Origin: a virus
Lineage: Duplodnaviria; Caudoviricetes
IMG/VR virus record: IMGVR_UViG_2603880160_000004
Location: 1-64,000 of that record
DNA length: 64,000 nucleotides
Reading direction: 5' to 3' (one strand)
This document shows, piece after piece, positions 12,485 through 52,056 of the stretch. Under the pieces are notes generated by a model, which was not told the origin of the DNA, made no database searches, and saw only the letters and a list, made by a program, of their open reading frames with translations. Position 1 is the first letter of the stretch; each line of letters opens with the position of its first letter. The position numbers and the translations under genes were made by a program.

Positions 12485-12561
12485 TAGGGTAATGGACTAA
12501 TGGCTAAGTCACTTGCTTTGGGAGCAAGGCATCATGGAGGTTCGAGTCCTCTTTACCCTAC
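12485..12561 (+). tRNA. tRNA-Pro(TGG)
   Basis: Acceptor TAGGGTA/TACCCTA; anticodon arm CTTGC-TTTGGGA-GCAAG; GGTTCGAGTCC. Confidence 0.9.
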
Positions 12562-12568
12562 AAACATA

Positions 12569-12639
12569 TCCGGTTTGGTGCAATGGCAGCATGAAGGTCT
12601 CCAAAACCTTTGATTACAGTTCGAGTCTGTAAACCGGTG
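12569..12639 (+). tRNA. tRNA-Trp(CCA)
   Basis: AAGGT-CTCCAAA-ACCTT; T arm TACAG-TTCGAGT-CTGTA. Confidence 0.9.
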
Positions 12640-12644
12640 CAAAG

Positions 12645-12715
12645 TGTCCTTTAGTATAGTGGTAGTACAGATGGTTTTGGTCCATCTAGCTGTGGTTCGA
12701 GCCCACGAGGGACAA
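12645..12715 (+). tRNA. tRNA-Gln(TTG)
   Basis: TGTCCTT/AGGGACA; GATGG-TTTTGGT-CCATC. Confidence 0.9.
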
Positions 12716-12722
12716 CTAACAT

Positions 12723-12795
12723 GGTGATTATAGCCTAACGGTTAAGGTGGAAGCTTGTGGCGCTTCAGATGTGAGTTCGATTCTCACTAATCACA
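12723..12795 (+). tRNA. tRNA-His(GTG)
   Basis: G-1, GTGATTA/TAATCAC; GAAGC-TTGTGGC-GCTTC. Confidence 0.9.
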
Positions 12796-12800
12796 CATAT

Positions 12801-12901
12801 TGCGGGGAGAGAGGTCTCCCACCGGTCTCATCGGTCTTTAGGTCTTTATAGAGCTAATACCGTTAAGCCGAGTGTCTCAGGATCATTCCCTGACCCCGCA
12901 A
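12801..12901 (+). tRNA. Initiator-tRNA-Met(CAT)-like gene with 33-nt anticodon-loop insertion and reduced D arm
   Basis: TGCGGGG/CCCCGCA-A acceptor; CCGGT-CTCAT[12832-12864]AA-GCCGA; T arm TCAGG-ATCATTC-CCTGA. Confidence 0.55.
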
Positions 12902-12922
12902 CAAAAAAAAGATTTAAAATAT

Positions 12923-12974
12923 TTTGTGATTTCACAACTTATTACTATCTTTGTAAAACAATGGATCTTTGAAA
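12923..12974 (+). promoter_or_regulatory. Bacteroidota promoter plus boxA-like antitermination site
   Basis: TTTG 12923-26, 19 nt, TATCTTTG 12946-53; GATCTTTGAAA at 12964-74. Confidence 0.7.
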
Positions 12975-12989
12975 TATTGAAAATAACAC

Positions 12990-13062
12990 GCCTCGTTAGC
13001 TCAGTTGGTAGAGCAAGTCATTTGTAATGATTAGGTCTGCGGTTCAAGTCCGTAACGAGGCT
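12990..13062 (+). tRNA. tRNA-Thr(TGT)
   Basis: GCCTCGT/ACGAGGC; loop TTTGTAA; canonical D and T arms. Confidence 0.92.
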
Positions 13063-13064
13063 CA

Positions 13065-13275
13065 ACAGGTGACGACGGTGGTGTAACCCCACTGTCTATG
13101 AATCCCAAAAGATCCGTCTGACTCGCGAGGTAGGGCGGTGAGGGTAAAGTTACTATAAGTCGGGACTAATTAACCCAATACGAAAATGTAACCACCGAGT
13201 AAAGTTTGCTGAGACGTGATGTAAATCCAACCAAACTTCGGTCATGATGTACATAGATGGTACGAAAAACCTGTA
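13065..13275 (+). ncRNA. Unidentified multibranch structured RNA
   Basis: ACAGGT/ACCTGT closing stem plus several nested helices; no ORF. Confidence 0.45.
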
Positions 13276-13359
13276 ATTTTTTGAGACTAACTCAACGAGG
13301 ACTTTGTTAACCAGTGCATGACACGGAGGTGCAACTTAAGTTGGGTTGGAATCAAACAC

Positions 13360-13432
13360 GCTTCCTTAGCTCAGTTGGTAGAGCGCAAAACTGTTAATTT
13401 TGAAGTCGGGGGATCGTGACCCTCAGGGAGCG
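13360..13432 (+). tRNA. tRNA-Asn(GTT)
   Basis: GCTTCCT/AGGGAGC; CAAAA-CTGTTAA-TTTTG; atypical T loop ATCGTGA. Confidence 0.88.
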
Positions 13433-13524
13433 CAACGTGATAATCACTCCACGCAAGTGGTAAGCACCCGGCAGTAACACCGGGATGGCAATGTGATTAT
13501 TAAGAGGTAAGGAAAAGACTAATA

Positions 13525-13597
13525 GGACTTGTAGCTCAGCTGGTAGAGCAAGACACTCATAATGTCGAGGTCGGGGGATCATACCCCTCCGAGTCCA
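13525..13597 (+). tRNA. tRNA-CAT (Ile2-lysidine or elongator Met)
   Basis: GGACTTG/CGAGTCC-A; loop CTCATAA; atypical T loop ATCATAC. Confidence 0.85.
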
Positions 13598-13668
13598 CAG
13601 TAGGTGTCCAAAGCATTAAGGACTTAATGGTGGTAAAGAGTTAAATAATTAAGCCCCACCTATGAAAT

Positions 13669-13739
13669 GGACTGTTAGTTAATTAGCATAACGCTGGTTT
13701 GTCACATCAGTATGAGGGGAGCGTAACCCCTACGGTCCG
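13669..13739 (+). tRNA. tRNA-Asp(GTC)
   Basis: GGACTGT/ACGGTCC-G; CTGGT-TTGTCAC-ATCAG; atypical T loop AGCGTAA. Confidence 0.8.
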
Positions 13740-13933
13740 CACGGTTTGGTTAGTCACCGAATAGTATGTCCAATATGATGAGAAATGGTTTGACAACCAT
13801 ATGGAAACGTACATTGACGTATAGGAAGAACGTCAGGGGATATCACCCCGACCTCGTGAGGACGAAATGATTATTCCTAACCCGAAAGGGGACAGCTACG
13901 ACACCTGTGAGTTGGATAAATAAAGGTGTCAAC

Positions 13934-14022
13934 GGAGAGATGGCAGAGTTGGTCTATCGCGACAGTCTTGAAAACTGTAGACTGTAACAGGTCCGTGGGT
14001 TCGAATCCTACTCTCTCCGCCA
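13934..14022 (+). tRNA. tRNA-Ser(TGA)
   Basis: GGAGAGA/TCTCTCC-GCCA; loop CTTGAAA; long variable arm. Confidence 0.93.
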
Positions 14023-14254
14023 GTGCTGAGTTTTGGTTGATGACCGAACACTACTTCTCATCAATTTAGTGGAAACTCAGAGGAATTGACACCTCGGAAA
14101 GACGAGGATTTTTAATCACAAATAAAAATGTGAGTTATAGTAAAGTAGCCAATTATAAGCCAACATAAAGCTGTTGGGTACAGACGGAGTAATTAACCAG
14201 AGTACAGTGCACCGATTGTGATACTATAACAAATACCCATTTGAGTGATTATTT

Positions 14255-14329
14255 GTTCTTGTCGACTAAGGGTTAGGTCACCTCCCTTTCACGGAGGTAA
14301 TACGGGTTCGAATCCCGTCGGGAATACCA
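14255..14329 (+). tRNA. tRNA-Glu(TTC)
   Basis: CCTCC-CTTTCAC-GGAGG; GGTTCGAATCC; encoded CCA. Confidence 0.92.
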
Positions 14330-19430: not shown

Positions 19431-19829
19431 GGGGACGCCTTGGATTTGATTTCAGGTATCAGGAGTAAATGGCACGTAGTCAGAATTCATCTATGACTTT
19501 AATCCACGGTGAAGAAAATTAAACGACAACGTTTACAACACAATGGAAATTGCAGGTGTTCTTGCAACTTCTAAAGTAGCAGCCTAATTAGATTAGCCTC
19601 TACGCACGGGTCGACGGACATATAACCTTGGAACAGAAGTCCTTACAGTGTAATACCACTTAGAGTGTTGGAGCATGACCTGATTGTCTCTTTAAAATTT
19701 AGTCAGGGACAAGTTTGTTGTTTTTCTGTGTATGAAATCAAATATTTGTCAATTGAGAACCAATTGAATAAACGTGTAGTCATTTATTGTTGAACAGGAA
19801 AGACAAGGGTTCGACTCCCTTCGTCTCCA
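19431..19829 (+). ncRNA. ssrA: tmRNA
   Basis: GGGGACG/CGTCTCC-A acceptor with G3-U70; GGATTTGA; T arm GGTTCGACTCC; tag ORF 19525-19587 DNVYNTMEIAGVLATSKVAA*. Confidence 0.9.
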
Positions 19830-19833
19830 CTTT

Positions 19834-49247: not shown

Positions 49248-49622
49248 TTAATATTGTGCGTGATATTCTATTTTAGTTATTTCACCACCCTCTTTATAGA
49301 ATTCATATCTTTGTTCTTTGGTTATCGCCCTATCCATCGCCATAAACATCGCTTTAAATTCATTATCGTTATATGTTTTTTTACCTGTATTCTTTTTCTC
49401 CAATAATCTTTGAGCCATTGGATATACCAATTTGTCATTGAATTTAAATATCTTTTTAAGGTCGTTGATAGGTGTATTTTGGACTTCACCATCCTCACCA
49501 CGAAGAAATCTTGATAGGAACCCCAACATAGTTTGTTCGACAGATGTTAGGTTACCAGTTTGAGTTTGTTGTTCGTTTAGAACAATTTTTCTTAGTTGTG
49601 TCTCATTTATGATAAGTTTCAT
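49248..49622 (-). CDS. Hypothetical protein with INETQL tag
   Basis: Likely start 49622 MKLIINETQLRKIVLNEQ; TATTTATA at 49627-34. Confidence 0.7.
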   Translation of the reverse strand: MKLIINETQLRKIVLNEQQTQTGNLTSVEQTMLGFLSRFLRGEDGEVQNTPINDLKKIFKFNDKLVYPMAQRLLEKKNTGKKTYNDNEFKAMFMAMDRAITKEQRYEFYKEGGEITKIEYHAQY

Positions 49623-49638
49623 ATTATATAAATATAAC

Positions 49639-49726
49639 AAAAAGGGATATGAGTAGCGAATTCATATCCCAACGGAACGTTAACCATTCCGGTCCTAAGT
49701 CGGGTCTTCAAACCCGAGGTATCTTT
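49639..49726 (-). ncRNA. Candidate structured RNA complementary to 23S rRNA H69-H71
   Basis: Three hairpins; linker CTTAGGACCG and terminator loop ATTCGCTAC. Confidence 0.5.
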
Positions 49727-49741
49727 AATTGTGTTCAATAA

Positions 49742-50254
49742 CTACCATCTTAAAAGTCCAAAAAGACCGCGAGACCTTGTACCATCACAAAAATATGTTG
49801 TTCTTTTCGTTCTAAATAATTTACCTAAAAAAGATAACACTAATGCGAAAAGAATCACACCAACAGCAATAGCAACACCAGGATTCATACTAACACCTAA
49901 TAAGGTAACGACAGCAGGTGCCGCAACTTGTTCAGATTGTAATTTTGATTGTCTCTTTAATTCCTTCAGTTGTTTTTTCACTTGCATTAATTCAGAAAAT
50001 GATGCTGTTTTCATCTTTTCCTTTAGTTCCATTATCTTTTGTCGGTCTTCACCGCTAACATTTGATGGTAAATCGATATTGTCTGTTTCTAAACATATGA
50101 TTCCCTCATATTCTTCTATTGTCAAATCTTCGTCAACTTTTTGATTAAATTCTTGGGTATCTTGTTGTAACATAATCATGGATTGAGAATCGTCTTCATT
50201 TAGATTCATCATGATTTTAATTCTATCAATTTGTTCGTGTAATGTTTGTTTCAT
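49742..50254 (-). CDS. Membrane-anchored hypothetical protein
   Basis: MKQTLHEQIDRIKIMMNLNE; C-terminal TM. Confidence 0.7.
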   Translation of the reverse strand: MKQTLHEQIDRIKIMMNLNEDDSQSMIMLQQDTQEFNQKVDEDLTIEEYEGIICLETDNIDLPSNVSGEDRQKIMELKEKMKTASFSELMQVKKQLKELKRQSKLQSEQVAAPAVVTLLGVSMNPGVAIAVGVILFALVLSFLGKLFRTKRTTYFCDGTRSRGLFGLLRW

Positions 50255-50379: not shown

Positions 50380-52056
50380 TTAAATTGTTTTTTTATAAAT
50401 ATCTCTTACCGTATCAATTAACGATAATTTGGATTCGTTTATTTTAAATTTACTTTTAGGGGTTTTAGGTGTTTCTCTTTCCGGATAGTCACCGACATAT
50501 TCTATTTTATTTCTTTCAACAACTTTTAATTTGTTCTCTAATAATTTATCATATTGACCTTCTTTAAGGGTATGAGGTATACGAATCAAACCCAAACCGT
50601 AATTATTAGTTTTAATAAATTCATTTTTTATATTATCACTTTCGTACAATATATTATAATTCATTTGTCTAGTGTACTCTGATTTACCAAACGTGGGTTC
50701 AAAATGTTGTTTTCCGTCATATTCAATAAGAACATTATATGGTTCTGGTAAATAAAAATCAAATTTTTGATTACCAAGTTCAGGATAGTTCTTTTCTTTT
50801 TCAAATTTTATACCATTTTTTCTTAATAGTTCACCAATGTATCTTTCATTTCTTGATTCTTGACATATTGGACAACCTTGTCCTGTAGAATGATTAGAGG
50901 GAGTTTGCCAAAACATTCCATGTTCTTTATCATTAGGACCTTTTACGTGACATTCAATAGGTATTTTTGTGTTTCCATTAATAAATTCTTTATCAATATT
51001 TGGGTAAGTGTATTTAATCGACCTATTAGACTGAACATCCTCAAATTTTCTTTTATAATTATTTAAATTGTTAACCCTATCACATTCTTTACATTCAATT
51101 GAACCTCCTCTTTTAATTGCGTCTGTAATTGATGATGGGTAACTTCTTTCAATAGGGTATGGTGTTTTTCCATGTAATGTACAACCAAGTGTTATCGGTG
51201 TTTCTCTATTGATATAGTCCGATAATAAAACAAATCTATCTCCCGAATATTCACGAACTTTATCCATGAAGTTTTTTTCTTCAATTGCAATTCTTTCACA
51301 TTCTGAACATAAAGGTATTCCATCATAAAAATATTTTGCTTTTACTTTTGTGACTTCTTTATTATGTTTTTTACATTTTATTTTTCCGTTTTGATACGGA
51401 CTTTTATATTCCATACCAGACCACTCATACCAACTTATTGGAATGTGGTATAATTTCATTCTTTCTTTAACTTTTCTTATAAACTCTGCACGAGAAAGAT
51501 TAATTGGTTGTTTAACTATTCCTTGTTCGTCTTTACATTTCCCACAACCAACATTTTGATATATGTGAAGTTGTGCATTTTTTATAGTTTGTTTACCGTG
51601 AGGTTTTCCATCGGAACCAACTTTCGGACAATAAAAATCAAATTCATTATTGATACCAGTATATCTTCTTAAACCTGGTCTATTGTAGATATATAAAGGA
51701 TTTCCATTTTCATCCTTCCATATCTCTTTTACCTTACTATAAAAATCATTTTTAGTTGATTTAATATTATTTTGACTATCATCTTTTTTACACTCACTAC
51801 ATCCATTTGGACCAATACGACCTTTCAATAGATACTCAACAAGTGCAGGGAAATCAACGTTATGTTTCTTACAATGAACATTTACGGTTGAATTTTTTGT
51901 GAAATTTTCTTGATTACCGAAATCATAAAGACTACCTTTTCCATAAGGGAACAATTGTTTCATTTTTAATAAAAAATCTTCCTTTGACCTCGCTTCAGTT
52001 TTTTCACTTAACGGTAATAGGTTTTCATCTTCCAATATAATATCAAATAATTTCAT
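50380..52056 (-). CDS. Homing-endonuclease-like protein: repeated C..H..C..C zinc modules + PD-(D/E)xK (DUF559/Vsr-like) nuclease
   Basis: Five C-x-H...C-x2-C repeats; FDFYLP..LIEYDGKQH..D..KN..LIRIP. Confidence 0.8.
   Translation of the reverse strand: MKLFDIILEDENLLPLSEKTEARSKEDFLLKMKQLFPYGKGSLYDFGNQENFTKNSTVNVHCKKHNVDFPALVEYLLKGRIGPNGCSECKKDDSQNNIKSTKNDFYSKVKEIWKDENGNPLYIYNRPGLRRYTGINNEFDFYCPKVGSDGKPHGKQTIKNAQLHIYQNVGCGKCKDEQGIVKQPINLSRAEFIRKVKERMKLYHIPISWYEWSGMEYKSPYQNGKIKCKKHNKEVTKVKAKYFYDGIPLCSECERIAIEEKNFMDKVREYSGDRFVLLSDYINRETPITLGCTLHGKTPYPIERSYPSSITDAIKRGGSIECKECDRVNNLNNYKRKFEDVQSNRSIKYTYPNIDKEFINGNTKIPIECHVKGPNDKEHGMFWQTPSNHSTGQGCPICQESRNERYIGELLRKNGIKFEKEKNYPELGNQKFDFYLPEPYNVLIEYDGKQHFEPTFGKSEYTRQMNYNILYESDNIKNEFIKTNNYGLGLIRIPHTLKEGQYDKLLENKLKVVERNKIEYVGDYPERETPKTPKSKFKINESKLSLIDTVRDIYKKTI

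What the first reader, a model, noticed from the sequence alone, without database searches (positions are those of the whole stretch)
49639..49726. Small terminator-ended RNA carrying two guides antisense to adjacent segments of 23S rRNA H69-H71
Seen: the + strand has GTAGCGAA (49653-60) and CGGTCCTAAG (49690-99), plus AACGG (49671-75). Established: bacterial 23S rRNA has the near-invariant tract AACGGUCCUAAG-GUAGCGAA (E. coli ~1918-1937; H69-H71, intersubunit bridge region, I-CeuI site). On the minus strand, which is the transcribed strand here (3' UTR of 49742-50254), the RNA reads hairpin(TCGGGT/ACCCGA)-CTTAGGACCG-hairpin-GTT-GGGATATGA[ATTCGCTAC]TCATATCCC-TTTTT. A 10-nt linker and the terminator loop are thus exact complements of two abutting rRNA segments, in permuted order around the 1929/1930 junction. 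Inference: a phage RNA that clamps the 50S bridge region (ribosome tethering, splitting or hibernation, or a split guide for rRNA modification or cleavage). I know no named family that does this.
Basis: partly seen in the sequence, partly recalled or inferred. Interest (0 to 1): 0.88.

Follow-up and report, generated by a model that had tools for sequence, protein, structure and literature searches.

The report
Phage RNA antisense to ribosomal H69
A small folded RNA, present about once per genome in hundreds of large phages, keeps exposed segments that are the exact complement of one of the most conserved parts of the bacterial large-subunit ribosomal RNA, which suggests that these phages use an RNA to grip or disable host ribosomes.

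Summary
On its own it is not significant: 44% of shuffled windows give a comparable 10-mer plus abutting 8-mer match to 23S rRNA.

Comparative data change the picture. The element belongs to a large, phage-restricted structured RNA family with no match in Rfam 15. Three scans anchored on other parts of the RNA show that the stems covary while CUUAGGACCG and UUCGCUAC stay nearly fixed.

The second hairpin of the window-type RNA is an antisense copy of helix 69. The H69 region is the best predicted 23S partner.

The RNA is intergenic, co-oriented with its neighbours, and present in 1-2 copies per jumbo-phage genome. An unannotated copy lies in the cultured Pseudomonas phage PA5oct.

Best reading: a phage antisense RNA that targets the H69-H70 region of 23S rRNA. 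What that pairing does is unknown.

Against this reading: about 15% of one class carry a third-hairpin loop with no rRNA complement, some members mask the first segment in cis, and there are no binding data.

The parts
49700..49717 (-). Hairpin 1 (UCGGGU UUGAAG ACCCGA). The loop region GGUUUGAAGACC is conserved in the window-type class, and the stem covaries.
   Evidence: fold; the stem changes CGGG/CCCG, UGGG/CCCA, AGGG/CCCU, GUGG/CCAC, GAGG/CCUC while the loop stays fixed. No rRNA complement of 8 nt or more.
49690..49699 (-). Segment 1, CUUAGGACCG. CUUAGGAC is a single-stranded linker, and the last two nucleotides (CG) open hairpin 2. It is the exact complement of 23S 1920-1929.
   Evidence: Exact in 33 of 39 class-A elements found without using it; 5 of the other 6 carry A>G, which keeps a G.U pair with U1923. 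Exact in 74 of 104 class-B elements.
49673..49691 (-). Hairpin 2 (CGGAAUG GUUAA CGUUCCG), the antisense counterpart of 23S helix 69. The loop AUGGUU can pair with the H69 loop AACUAU through one G.U pair.
   Evidence: fold. Relatives read CUUAGGACCGUUAUAGUUAACGG (L044, L342, L382), against the antisense strand of bacterial 23S rDNA, CUUAGGACCGUUAUAGUUACGG. The U.G pair in the stem marks the minus strand as the RNA.
49644..49670 (-). Hairpin 3, a 9-bp stem GGGAUAUGA/UCAUAUCCC with the 9-nt loop AUUCGCUAC. UUCGCUAC (49660-49653) is the complement of 23S 1930-1937.
   Evidence: The stem covaries. The loop is exact in 37 of 39 class-A elements and in 119 of 177 class-B elements.
49639..49643 (-). 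A run of five U directly after hairpin 3, which together with it forms an intrinsic-terminator-like 3' end.
   Evidence: The scan tool did not list it because its loop limit is 8 nt.
49742..50254 (-). Upstream ORF of 170 aa with a C-terminal hydrophobic segment and no Pfam family. The element lies in its 3' UTR.
   Evidence: Relatives at 56-91% identity in three viral contigs carry the same element downstream.
49248..49622 (-). Downstream ORF of 124 aa counted from the ATG at 49622, with no Pfam family. It is preceded by the A/T-rich spacer GUUAUAUUUAUAUAAU.

Best explanation
The element is one member of a large, phage-specific family of small structured RNAs of about 75-110 nt, usually present once per genome. 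It is transcribed from the gene strand, as the 3' end of the upstream message or as a small RNA processed from it. Variable, covarying helices display conserved unpaired sequence that is antisense to the universally conserved H69-H70 tract of 23S rRNA (E. coli 1906-1937). The most likely mechanism is inferred, not shown. The RNA would pair with host 23S rRNA as a classical antisense RNA. The free linker CUUAGGA(C) and the loop of the anti-H69 hairpin would make first contact with the H69 loop and its 3' flank. The two hairpins would then exchange strands to give up to about 18-23 bp. The hairpin-3 loop UUCGCUAC would add 8 bp on the abutting 1930-1937 segment. Because H69 forms the central intersubunit bridge (recalled knowledge), the expected result is that free or still-assembling 50S subunits are captured or kept from joining 30S. 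Whether the outcome is inhibition, tethering or marking for cleavage cannot be told from sequence.
For: Shown:
- Family and structure. Covariation score is 0.45 against 0.175 in shuffles, with 0 of 500 shuffles as high, and 81.6% of cells are paired against 27-40% when partners are slid. In class A, 11 of 14 predicted pairs carry compensatory changes.
- Segments fixed while stems vary, in sets chosen without reference to them. Class A: 33 of 39 elements have segment 1 exact, 5 more carry a wobble-compatible change, and 37 of 39 have segment 2 exact. Class B: 74 of 104 and 55 of 104. Third-hairpin loop: 119 exact plus 20 xCGCUAC variants of 177.
- rRNA relation measured objectively. The best blastn-short HSP against the E. 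coli rrn operon is antisense at 23S 1900-1945 in 85 of 104 class-B and 29 of 36 class-A elements, and in 0 shuffled ones.
- Hybridisation scan with intramolecular folding. The top 8 of 544 windows (Chryseobacterium 23S) and the top 8 of 571 (E. coli 23S) all cover the H69 site, at -15.8 and -16.2 kcal/mol against means of -3.4 and -3.7 (sd 2.3 and 2.5). The H69 window also ranks first for 4 of 5 other members.
- Hairpin 2 equals antisense H69.
- An alternative third-hairpin loop, ACGCCAUUC/UUACGCCA, is antisense to 23S 1968-1978, about 40 nt downstream in the same domain.
- RNA strand. G.U against A.C in stems is 67:30 and 33:11. 123 of 124 elements lie outside any same-strand ORF. The nearest upstream ORF is on the same strand in 116 of 124 and the nearest downstream ORF in 101 of 124.
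- Copy number. 1-2 copies in each of 9 records searched.
- Phage-restricted. Only 2 of 93 pattern hits in 185,579 species' genomes are family members, and both lie on contigs of one MAG.
- Wide host range. The same segments occur in phages of very different hosts: PA5oct of Pseudomonas, and a lake phage distantly related to Flavobacterium phages. This calls for a universally conserved partner (inference).
- No complementary target elsewhere in the 97-kb phage record.
Against: - In mature 50S the target nucleotides are base-paired: the 3' strand of H69 and the H70 region (recalled, not tested). Pairing would need strand invasion or an immature subunit.
- 27 of 177 class-B members carry third-hairpin loops (GGAGUCGUGCCC in 20, 'other' loops in 7) without the main motif. 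The two commonest of these types (GGAGUCGUGCCC and GGCCGGGAAUCC) have no rRNA complement of 8 nt or more.
- In PA5oct and several metagenomic members, segment 1 is paired in cis with a C(C/U)UAAGG word. For PA5oct the H69 window ranks only third.
- The ACGCCAUUC complement holds for the E. coli 23S sequence but not the Chryseobacterium one.
- Conserved 9-mers can match rRNA without it meaning anything. The P2 loop CGGCUGCUG is antisense to 16S 519-527, yet it covaries with a cis partner.
- RF02541 finds no similarity on either strand.
- No strand-specific expression or binding data exist. The only RNA evidence is three contigs of 87-92 nt in one metatranscriptome.
Confidence: 0.5

Rival explanations
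1. It is a structured phage RNA whose conserved loops bind something other than rRNA: a phage or host protein, a metabolite, or each other. It would act as a 3'-end, processing, stability or regulatory element. On this view the likeness to antisense 23S is a relic of descent from a captured rDNA fragment, or a coincidence.
For: - Class B has a compact pseudoknotted fold typical of ligand- or protein-binding RNAs.
- The third-hairpin loop is a swappable module with at least four conserved versions, two of which have no rRNA complement.
- Segment 1 can be paired in cis.
- The hairpin-1 loop GGUUUGAAGACC is as conserved as the 'guides' yet has no rRNA complement.
- The element sits at a fixed place between a stop codon and the next promoter or start.
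Against: - By my own arithmetic, the chance that a family's conserved 11-mer matches rRNA and that its conserved loop matches the abutting 8 nt is about 1e-7. A second loop type also maps to the same rRNA domain.
- A relic would drift, but here the antisense words are the least variable part, and the commonest substitution in class A preserves pairing.
- The flanking genes differ between members, so a gene-specific cis regulator is unlikely.
Confidence: 0.28
2. rRNA pairing is real but acts in cis. The element would hold the 50S subunit (or the whole ribosome) on the message after termination at the upstream stop, to favour restart on the next gene. This is a large-subunit analogue of the calicivirus termination-reinitiation signal.
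For: The element starts a median of 9 nt after the upstream stop (96 of 116 within 30 nt). A same-strand ORF follows at a median of 54 nt. In some members the UAG inside CUUAGG is itself the stop codon.
Against: - With 1-2 copies in genomes of 200-355 kb, it is not a general coupling device.
- Class A ends in a terminator before the next gene, and PA5oct has a separate terminator after it.
- Compact phage genomes place any intergenic element flush with its neighbours.
Confidence: 0.1
3. It is only a transcription terminator with upstream hairpins, and the rRNA complementarity is chance.
For: Within one 64-kb window such a pair of matches is expected in 44% of shuffles. Hairpin 3 plus U5 looks like an intrinsic terminator.
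Against: Terminator loops and upstream linkers are not normally conserved. Here they are nearly invariant across hundreds of contigs while the stems change. Class B members lack a U run altogether.
Confidence: 0.02
4. The functional strand is the opposite (+) one. On this view the product is a permuted sense mimic of the 23S H67-H71 core that binds 30S subunits or an rRNA-binding protein, or the feature is a DNA-level site such as a homing-endonuclease target resembling the rDNA I-CeuI site.
For: - The + strand carries an H69-like hairpin followed by GUCCUAAG.
- Class D members read on the + strand resemble the H67 5' strand, a mini-H68 and H69 (my reading).
- L044 DNA holds 19 bp of the rDNA tract.
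Against: - Co-orientation with both neighbours, and U runs on the gene strand.
- G.U exceeds A.C two- to three-fold in the stems.
- There is no terminator on the + strand, and PA5oct has a strong one on the gene strand.
- The LSU model does not match.
- The rDNA tract is split and permuted, so it is not a contiguous endonuclease site.
Confidence: 0.04

Closest known systems
Trans- and cis-encoded antisense RNAs that start pairing by loop-loop kissing (CopA/CopT, RNA I/RNA II, Sok/hok; recalled knowledge)
   Same: It is a small, stem-loop-rich, terminator-ended RNA. A hairpin loop is complementary to a hairpin loop of the target, next to a single-stranded toehold. Full pairing would need exchange of two hairpins into one long duplex.
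   Different: The proposed target is a ribosomal RNA helix, not an mRNA or a replication primer. The RNA is not encoded opposite its target. A second, separate loop addresses the abutting target segment.
Box C/D and H/ACA guide RNAs of archaea and eukaryotes (recalled)
   Same: They are small RNAs whose conserved function rests on 10-20 nt of complementarity to universally conserved rRNA sites.
   Different: The element has no C (RUGAUGA), D (CUGA), H or ACA boxes. The order of the split guides is the reverse of an H/ACA pocket. No partner enzyme genes are conserved nearby. Such guides are unknown in bacteria and phages.
Viral mRNA elements complementary to rRNA: the calicivirus TURBS (18S helix 26) and the BYDV-like 3' translation element (18S) (recalled)
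   Same: A virus-encoded, structured, untranslated element lies next to a stop codon or in a 3' UTR, with a conserved unpaired tract complementary to rRNA.
   Different: Those elements pair with small-subunit rRNA of eukaryotes over 5-7 nt. This one matches 10-19 nt of large-subunit rRNA in phages, and it ends in a terminator or pseudoknot.
Group II intron EBS2/EBS1 exon-binding loops (recalled)
   Same: Two separate loops pair with two abutting target segments in the same 'permuted' order: the 5' guide pairs with the upstream segment and the 3' guide with the downstream segment.
   Different: There is no intron core, no domain V and no reverse transcriptase. The element is about 90 nt, and no Rfam intron model matches.
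Synthetic antisense oligomers (PNA) directed at helix 69 (recalled; one review was seen only as a search listing, PMC12916000)
   Same: The target is the same, which shows in principle that H69 can be invaded by a complementary strand with loss of translation.
   Different: Those are man-made short oligomers. This would be a natural, structured, virus-encoded RNA.
Ribosome-associated non-coding RNAs (rancRNAs) of archaea and yeast (recalled)
   Same: They are small RNAs, often cut from mRNAs or tRNAs, that act by binding ribosomes directly.
   Different: No defined, conserved base-pairing to H69 is known for them. They are not viral and do not form a structured family.

Membership tests
Any family of Rfam release 15 | Covariance-model score at or above the family's gathering threshold | tested here: not met
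   There were 0 matches at gathering score on 18 member loci (93,385 bases). At E up to 10, nothing relevant appeared on the window region, on 4 member loci (the only overlap is the terminator-like ncr1241 at 23.4 bits against a threshold of 60), or on 3 class-D loci.
Intrinsic (Rho-independent) terminator | A G+C-containing hairpin followed at once by a U run on the transcribed strand | tested here: met
   A 9-bp stem is followed by UUUUU at 49670-49639 on the minus strand. It is not listed by the scan tool, whose loop limit is 8 nt.
Intrinsic terminator and nothing more | Loop and upstream sequence free to vary between relatives | tested here: not met
   The loop UUCGCUAC is exact in 37 of 39 class-A elements and the linker CUUAGGACCG in 33 of 39, while the stems covary. 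Class B has the same loops and no U run.
Box C/D guide RNA | C box RUGAUGA and D box CUGA flanking the guide | tested here: not met
   Neither word occurs in 49639-49726 on the minus strand (read).
H/ACA guide RNA | An ACA or ANA box 3 nt from the 3' end, and an internal-loop pocket whose 5' side pairs with the 3' part of the target | tested here: not met
   The 3' end is a U run. The guide order is the opposite: the 5' segment pairs with the upstream target part.
Group II intron (exon-binding sites) | Catalytic domain V and intron-scale architecture | tested here: not met
   The element is 88 nt, lies between two ORFs, and has no Rfam intron hit. Only the order of the two guides is alike.
Kissing-loop antisense RNA | A hairpin loop complementary to a hairpin loop of the target, plus an adjacent complementary stretch | tested here: met
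   The hairpin-2 loop (A/C)UAGUU pairs with the H69 loop AACUA, and the contiguous CUUAGGACCG pairs with 1920-1929. L044, L342 and L382 match 19 contiguous nt of antisense 23S. In the window the loop pairs through one G.U. This is in silico only.
Kissing-loop antisense RNA | Demonstrated duplex with the target in vivo or in vitro | not testable with these tools
   There are no binding or crosslinking data. Only predicted energies are available.
tRNA / tmRNA | Cloverleaf or tRNA-like domain recognised by ARAGORN | tested here: not met
   ARAGORN tRNAs and a tmRNA elsewhere in the window and nothing at 49.6 kb.
Fragment of LSU rRNA (sense mimic) | A match to the bacterial LSU covariance model RF02541 | tested here: not met
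   There was no match in the phage record and none on class-D loci at E up to 10.
Termination-reinitiation signal (TURBS-like) | rRNA-complementary tract a fixed short distance upstream of an overlapping or adjacent stop-restart site, used at the junction it serves | tested here: inconclusive
   The element is close to the upstream stop (median 9 nt) and a same-strand ORF follows (median 54 nt). However, class A has a terminator in between, there are only 1-2 copies per genome, and the complement is to 23S and not to small-subunit rRNA.

The most novel reading that the evidence does not exclude
Jumbo phages of many hosts carry a dedicated RNA gene whose product invades helix 69 of the host's 23S rRNA by kissing-loop and toehold strand exchange, and also grips the abutting H70 strand. 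It thereby controls whether 50S subunits can join 30S. This would be the first natural regulatory RNA in bacteria or their viruses that takes a functional centre of the ribosome itself as its base-pairing target. It would be a viral RNA counterpart of protein anti-association factors.
Probability: 0.35. Interest if true: 0.95.

Novelty: categorically new. Interest (0 to 1): 0.86.

Why it matters
If the pairing is real, it adds a new class of target, the ribosome's own RNA, to bacterial and phage riboregulation. It would also reveal an RNA-based route of host takeover in jumbo phages, which already carry tRNAs, tmRNA and translation factors. H69 is the central intersubunit bridge and a site of action for recycling factors and some antibiotics (recalled). 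A natural RNA that opens it would therefore be a tool for studying subunit joining and a template for antisense antibacterials. Even if the rRNA link proves a relic, the family is a widespread, well-supported, unnamed structured RNA with a pseudoknotted class and a terminator class. It also has a cultured, genetically tractable representative in PA5oct, so the question is directly testable.

Tried and rejected
- blastn of the window element and of a class-B element against 50,697 cultured phage records found no match. The conserved words are too short for BLAST, so this says nothing about absence.
- The neighbourhood query hit only Flavobacterium immuto phages, and outside the element.
- Model R1 on E. 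coli phage 121Q, Klebsiella phage RaK2 and Flavobacterium phage immuto gave only 13-16-bit hits that lack both motifs. I judged these not to be members. R1 found nothing in Sinorhizobium phage Phosso or Salicola phage SCTP-2.
- RNAduplex of the whole element against rRNA windows did not discriminate, with about -45 kcal/mol everywhere. I replaced it with cofold minus self-folding.
- A 7-mer coverage profile was too noisy, because conserved 7-mers hit rRNA at many places.
- The idea that the class-B P2 loop targets the 16S 530 loop (a 9-nt complement) was set aside. That loop covaries with its cis pseudoknot partner and class A lacks it.
- The idea of a mirror-image mini domain IV in class D rests on my reading and 9-11-nt matches. 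The LSU model does not see it.
- A search for a target inside the phage's own 97 kb found none.
- The first class-A scaffold scan used a wrong gap and found 1 chance hit. It was redone.
- MFE-based loop extraction was unreliable and was replaced by word classes.
- PA5oct's four published ncRNAs are at other coordinates (passages of PMC7318152). That paper's supplementary terminator and promoter tables could bear on the element, but supplements are closed.
- Literature searches by sequence string and by topic returned only 23S primers, I-CeuI sites and unrelated work (listings only). One search timed out.
- Runs that hold small shares of the window's words were not used as evidence of habitat.
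- Parts of the stretch without cover in the RNA run are not evidence of absence.
Full report
OBSERVATION. On the + strand, GTAGCGAA lies at 49653-49660, AACGG at 49671-49675 and CGGTCCTAAG at 49690-49699. The minus strand reads hairpin 1 (UCGGGU/ACCCGA), CUUAGGACCG, hairpin 2, GUU, then hairpin 3 (GGGAUAUGA[AUUCGCUAC]UCAUAUCCC) and UUUUU. The element sits between the stop of the minus-strand ORF 49742-50254 and the ATG at 49622. Against the annotated E. coli rrlH gene, the two words are the exact complements of 23S 1920-1929 and 1930-1937. The same is true of a Chryseobacterium 23S. The window is part of a 97-kb IMG/VR phage record judged 27% complete. It carries 10 tRNA genes and a tmRNA gene, and has only a faint DNA likeness to Flavobacterium phages.

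CHANCE. Taken alone, the window shows nothing. I asked how often a 64-kb sequence of this composition holds any 10-mer shared with E. coli 23S (either sense) with the abutting 8-mer within 60 nt on the same strand. Markov shuffles give a mean of 0.71 such pairs, and 44% of shuffles have at least one. The value of the finding therefore rests entirely on comparison with other sequences.

A LARGE FAMILY. The gaps cluster at 28-31 and 42-45 nt. Because that scan fixes the two words, I ran three scans anchored elsewhere.
- Scan (i) used the second hairpin and 3' tail of the majority class (GGCGGCTGCTGCC ... AAGTGAGCA). It gave 104 distinct elements, of which 74 have CUUAGGACCG exact, 55 have UUCGCUAC exact and 46 have both.
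- Scan (ii) used the hairpin-1 loop plus TAGTT plus T5 of the window-type class. It gave 42 distinct sequences, of which 3 are plainly unrelated. Of the other 39, segment 1 is exact in 33, reads CUUAGGGCCG in 5 and CUUAGGACCC in 1. Segment 2 is exact in 37 and reads UAUCGCUAC in 2.
- Scan (iii) used segment 1 plus the P2 loop. It gave 177 distinct elements. Their third-hairpin loops hold UUCGCUAC in 119, an xCGCUAC variant in 20, GGAGUCGUGCCC in 20, ACGCCA in 11 and something else in 7.
No Rfam 15 family matches the window element or 25 member loci.

STRUCTURE AND STRAND. There are two main architectures.
- Class A, the window's class, runs: hairpin 1 with conserved loop GGUUUGAAGACC, linker CUUAGGAC, hairpin 2, hairpin 3 with loop (A/G)UUCGCUAC, and usually a U run.
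- Class B runs: P1 enclosing CCUUAGGACC in its loop (with an optional inner hairpin), P2 whose loop GGCUGCU pairs with the 3' tail GUGAGC as a pseudoknot, and P3 with the AUUCGCUAC loop.
On 41 class-B sequences, 81.6% of cells pair, against 65.6% in column shuffles and 27-40% when partners are slid by 1-3 columns. The covariation score is 0.45 against 0.175, with 0 of 500 shuffles as high, and 16 of 22 pairs change on both sides. On 21 class-A sequences, 11 of 14 predicted pairs have compensatory changes. G.U pairs outnumber A.C by 67:30 and 33:11. The element lies outside any same-strand ORF in 123 of 124 cases. The nearest upstream ORF is on the same strand in 116 of 124 cases, at a median of 9 nt from its stop. 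The nearest downstream ORF is on the same strand in 101 of 124, at a median of 54 nt. The RNA is therefore the gene-strand transcript, which is the strand antisense to rRNA.

DISTRIBUTION.
- Model R1 finds 1-2 copies in each of nine phage records of 97-355 kb. The element behaves like a single-copy gene, not a repeated punctuation mark.
- Its neighbours differ. A DsbA-like 86-aa gene lies downstream in 39 of 124 cases, a DUF6321 protein upstream in 32, ribonucleotide reductase upstream in 8, and many others occur.
- Among one genome for each of 185,579 prokaryote species, the pattern gives 93 hits. About 43 are 23S rDNA itself read on its antisense strand, and only 2 are family members, both on contigs of one Haliscomenobacter MAG.
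- A cultured carrier exists. Pseudomonas phage PA5oct has an unannotated copy near 115,470-115,563, between EST35_0189 and EST35_0190. It has both words exact and a separate intrinsic terminator behind it. It is not one of the four ncRNAs reported for that phage (passages of PMC7318152).
- The window's phage occurs in lake-water metagenomes of 17 studies.
- In one freshwater metatranscriptome, the only contigs that lay on the 1.1-kb stretch are three of 87-92 nt, covering 49639-49723. That is the element and nothing else. This is only a weak hint, because contigs show neither strand nor ends, and DNA may be present in the library.
- None of the 40 listed population differences falls in 49617-49774, while 21 fall in the 100 nt before it (73 more are not shown).

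THE rRNA RELATION AT FAMILY LEVEL.
- In blastn-short against the E. coli rrn operon, the best HSP is antisense at 23S 1900-1945 for 85 of 104 class-B and 29 of 36 class-A elements chosen without the two words. No shuffled control gives this.
- The conserved core is 11 nt, CCUUAGGACCG, matching 1920-1930. The main P3 loop with its closing base is 9 nt, matching 1929-1937.
- Hairpin 2 of class A and the inner hairpin of long class B often carry the loop (A/C)UAGUU, complementary to the H69 loop. L044, L342 and L382 read CUUAGGACCGUUAUAGUUAACGG, against the antisense strand of bacterial 23S, CUUAGGACCGUUAUAGUUACGG. Hairpin 2 is therefore an antisense copy of H69.
- A minority P3 loop, ACGCCAUUC or UUACGCCA, is antisense to E. 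coli 23S 1968-1978.
- With self-folding subtracted, the window RNA's best partners among 544 (Chryseobacterium) and 571 (E. coli) 50-nt windows of 23S are the eight that cover H69. They reach -15.8 and -16.2 kcal/mol, against means of -3.4 and -3.7. The H69 window also ranks first for 4 of 5 other members and third for PA5oct.
- By my own arithmetic (not a tool result), the chance that a family's conserved 11-mer matches 4.5 kb of rRNA is about 1e-3, and the chance that its conserved loop matches one of the two abutting 8-mers is about 3e-5.
- The same words are kept in phages of Pseudomonas and of freshwater, probably Bacteroidota, hosts. This argues for a partner conserved across phyla, and this rRNA tract is such a partner.

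WHAT SPEAKS AGAINST.
- The target is base-paired in the mature subunit (recalled).
- 27 of 177 class-B members carry P3 loops without the main motif. The two commonest of these types have no rRNA complement of 8 nt or more.
- PA5oct and the L183-type members pair CCUUAGG with a cis C(C/U)UAAGG word.
- The ACGCCAUUC complement fits the E. coli 23S but not the Chryseobacterium one.
- The P2 loop's 9-nt complement to 16S 519-527 shows that a conserved 9-mer can match rRNA although its real partner is in cis.
- There are no binding data.

MECHANISM. I commit to an antisense mechanism with confidence about 0.5. The steps are toehold and kissing contact at the H69 loop and 1924-1930, strand exchange between hairpin 2 and H69, and a second 8-bp contact by the hairpin-3 loop. 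The result would be that H69 cannot form the central intersubunit bridge on free or immature 50S. Three things are shown: the family, the fold, the strand and the conserved complementarity. The pairing and its consequence are inferred. The main rival (0.28) is a structured RNA with a non-rRNA partner. A cis tether for restart (0.1), a plain terminator (0.02) and an opposite-strand or DNA-level feature (0.04) fit the data worse.

COMPARISON AND NOVELTY. The element works most like kissing-loop antisense RNAs. Conceptually it also resembles rRNA-complementary guide RNAs and viral rRNA-complementary UTR elements, but it fails the defining features of each family tested (see the membership table). 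Four topic or string searches of about 8.4 million papers and preprints returned nothing that describes such a phage RNA (listings only). Rfam has no model for it. I therefore rate the family as new, and the proposed mode of action, if true, as without natural precedent in bacteria or phages.

Noticed in passing
window 12486-14329 and 19431-19830 (+): There is a cluster of 10 tRNA genes (Pro, Trp, Gln, His, Thr, Asn, Met, Asp, Ser, Glu) and a phage-encoded tmRNA with the tag DNVYNTMEIAGVLATSKVAA. The phage invests heavily in translation functions.
   Followed up: no
class-B loci, e.g. L009:9308-9392 (-): The P2 hairpin word CGGCUGCUG is a 9-nt complement of the universally conserved 16S 519-527 (530-loop region) in both E. 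coli and Chryseobacterium. The same loop covaries with the 3' tail GUGAGC as a pseudoknot, so I treated the 16S match as probably coincidental.
   Followed up: partly
Pseudomonas phage PA5oct MK797984.1 ~115,470-115,600 (locus L240 1975-2090): An unannotated family member lies between EST35_0189 and EST35_0190 and is followed by a strong intrinsic terminator. It is not among the four ncRNAs published for this phage.
   Followed up: partly
L312 and L319 (two contigs of one Haliscomenobacter MAG): These are the only family members found in 185,579 prokaryote genomes. They are probably jumbo-phage contigs binned with a Bacteroidota host, which may hint at the host range.
   Followed up: no
window 49607-49680: In lake metagenomes the summed contig depth jumps to 60-220 over the hairpin-3 region, against 3-20 in the flanks. 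Many different phages in the same samples therefore share this stretch almost letter for letter.
   Followed up: no
window 49623-49638 and the same place in L077, L122, L123, L124: An A/T-rich word (UAUUUAUAUA) follows the terminator in the window-type loci. In class B a TATAAATA-like word (a T4 late-promoter look-alike, recalled) often follows the element. Both suggest that a promoter starts right behind the RNA.
   Followed up: no
window 50380-52056 (-): This 558-aa ORF has several repeats of a C-x2-C ... KKHN-like zinc-ribbon pattern and no Pfam family. It could be a nuclease or DNA-binding protein. No link to the RNA was seen.
   Followed up: no
L243-L311 and others (Acidobacteriota and other 23S rDNA): Many Acidobacteriota 23S genes hold a second TTCGCTAC word in helix 68, 42 nt from the H69 tract. 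That is why rDNA itself matched the gapped pattern. It has no bearing on the phage RNA.
   Followed up: yes
class-B loci L414, L417, L420, L425 and 16 more: A distinct conserved P3 apex, GG(G)AGUCGUGCC(C), replaces AUUCGCUAC in 20 of 177 elements. It has no rRNA complement of 8 nt or more, and its partner is unknown.
   Followed up: partly
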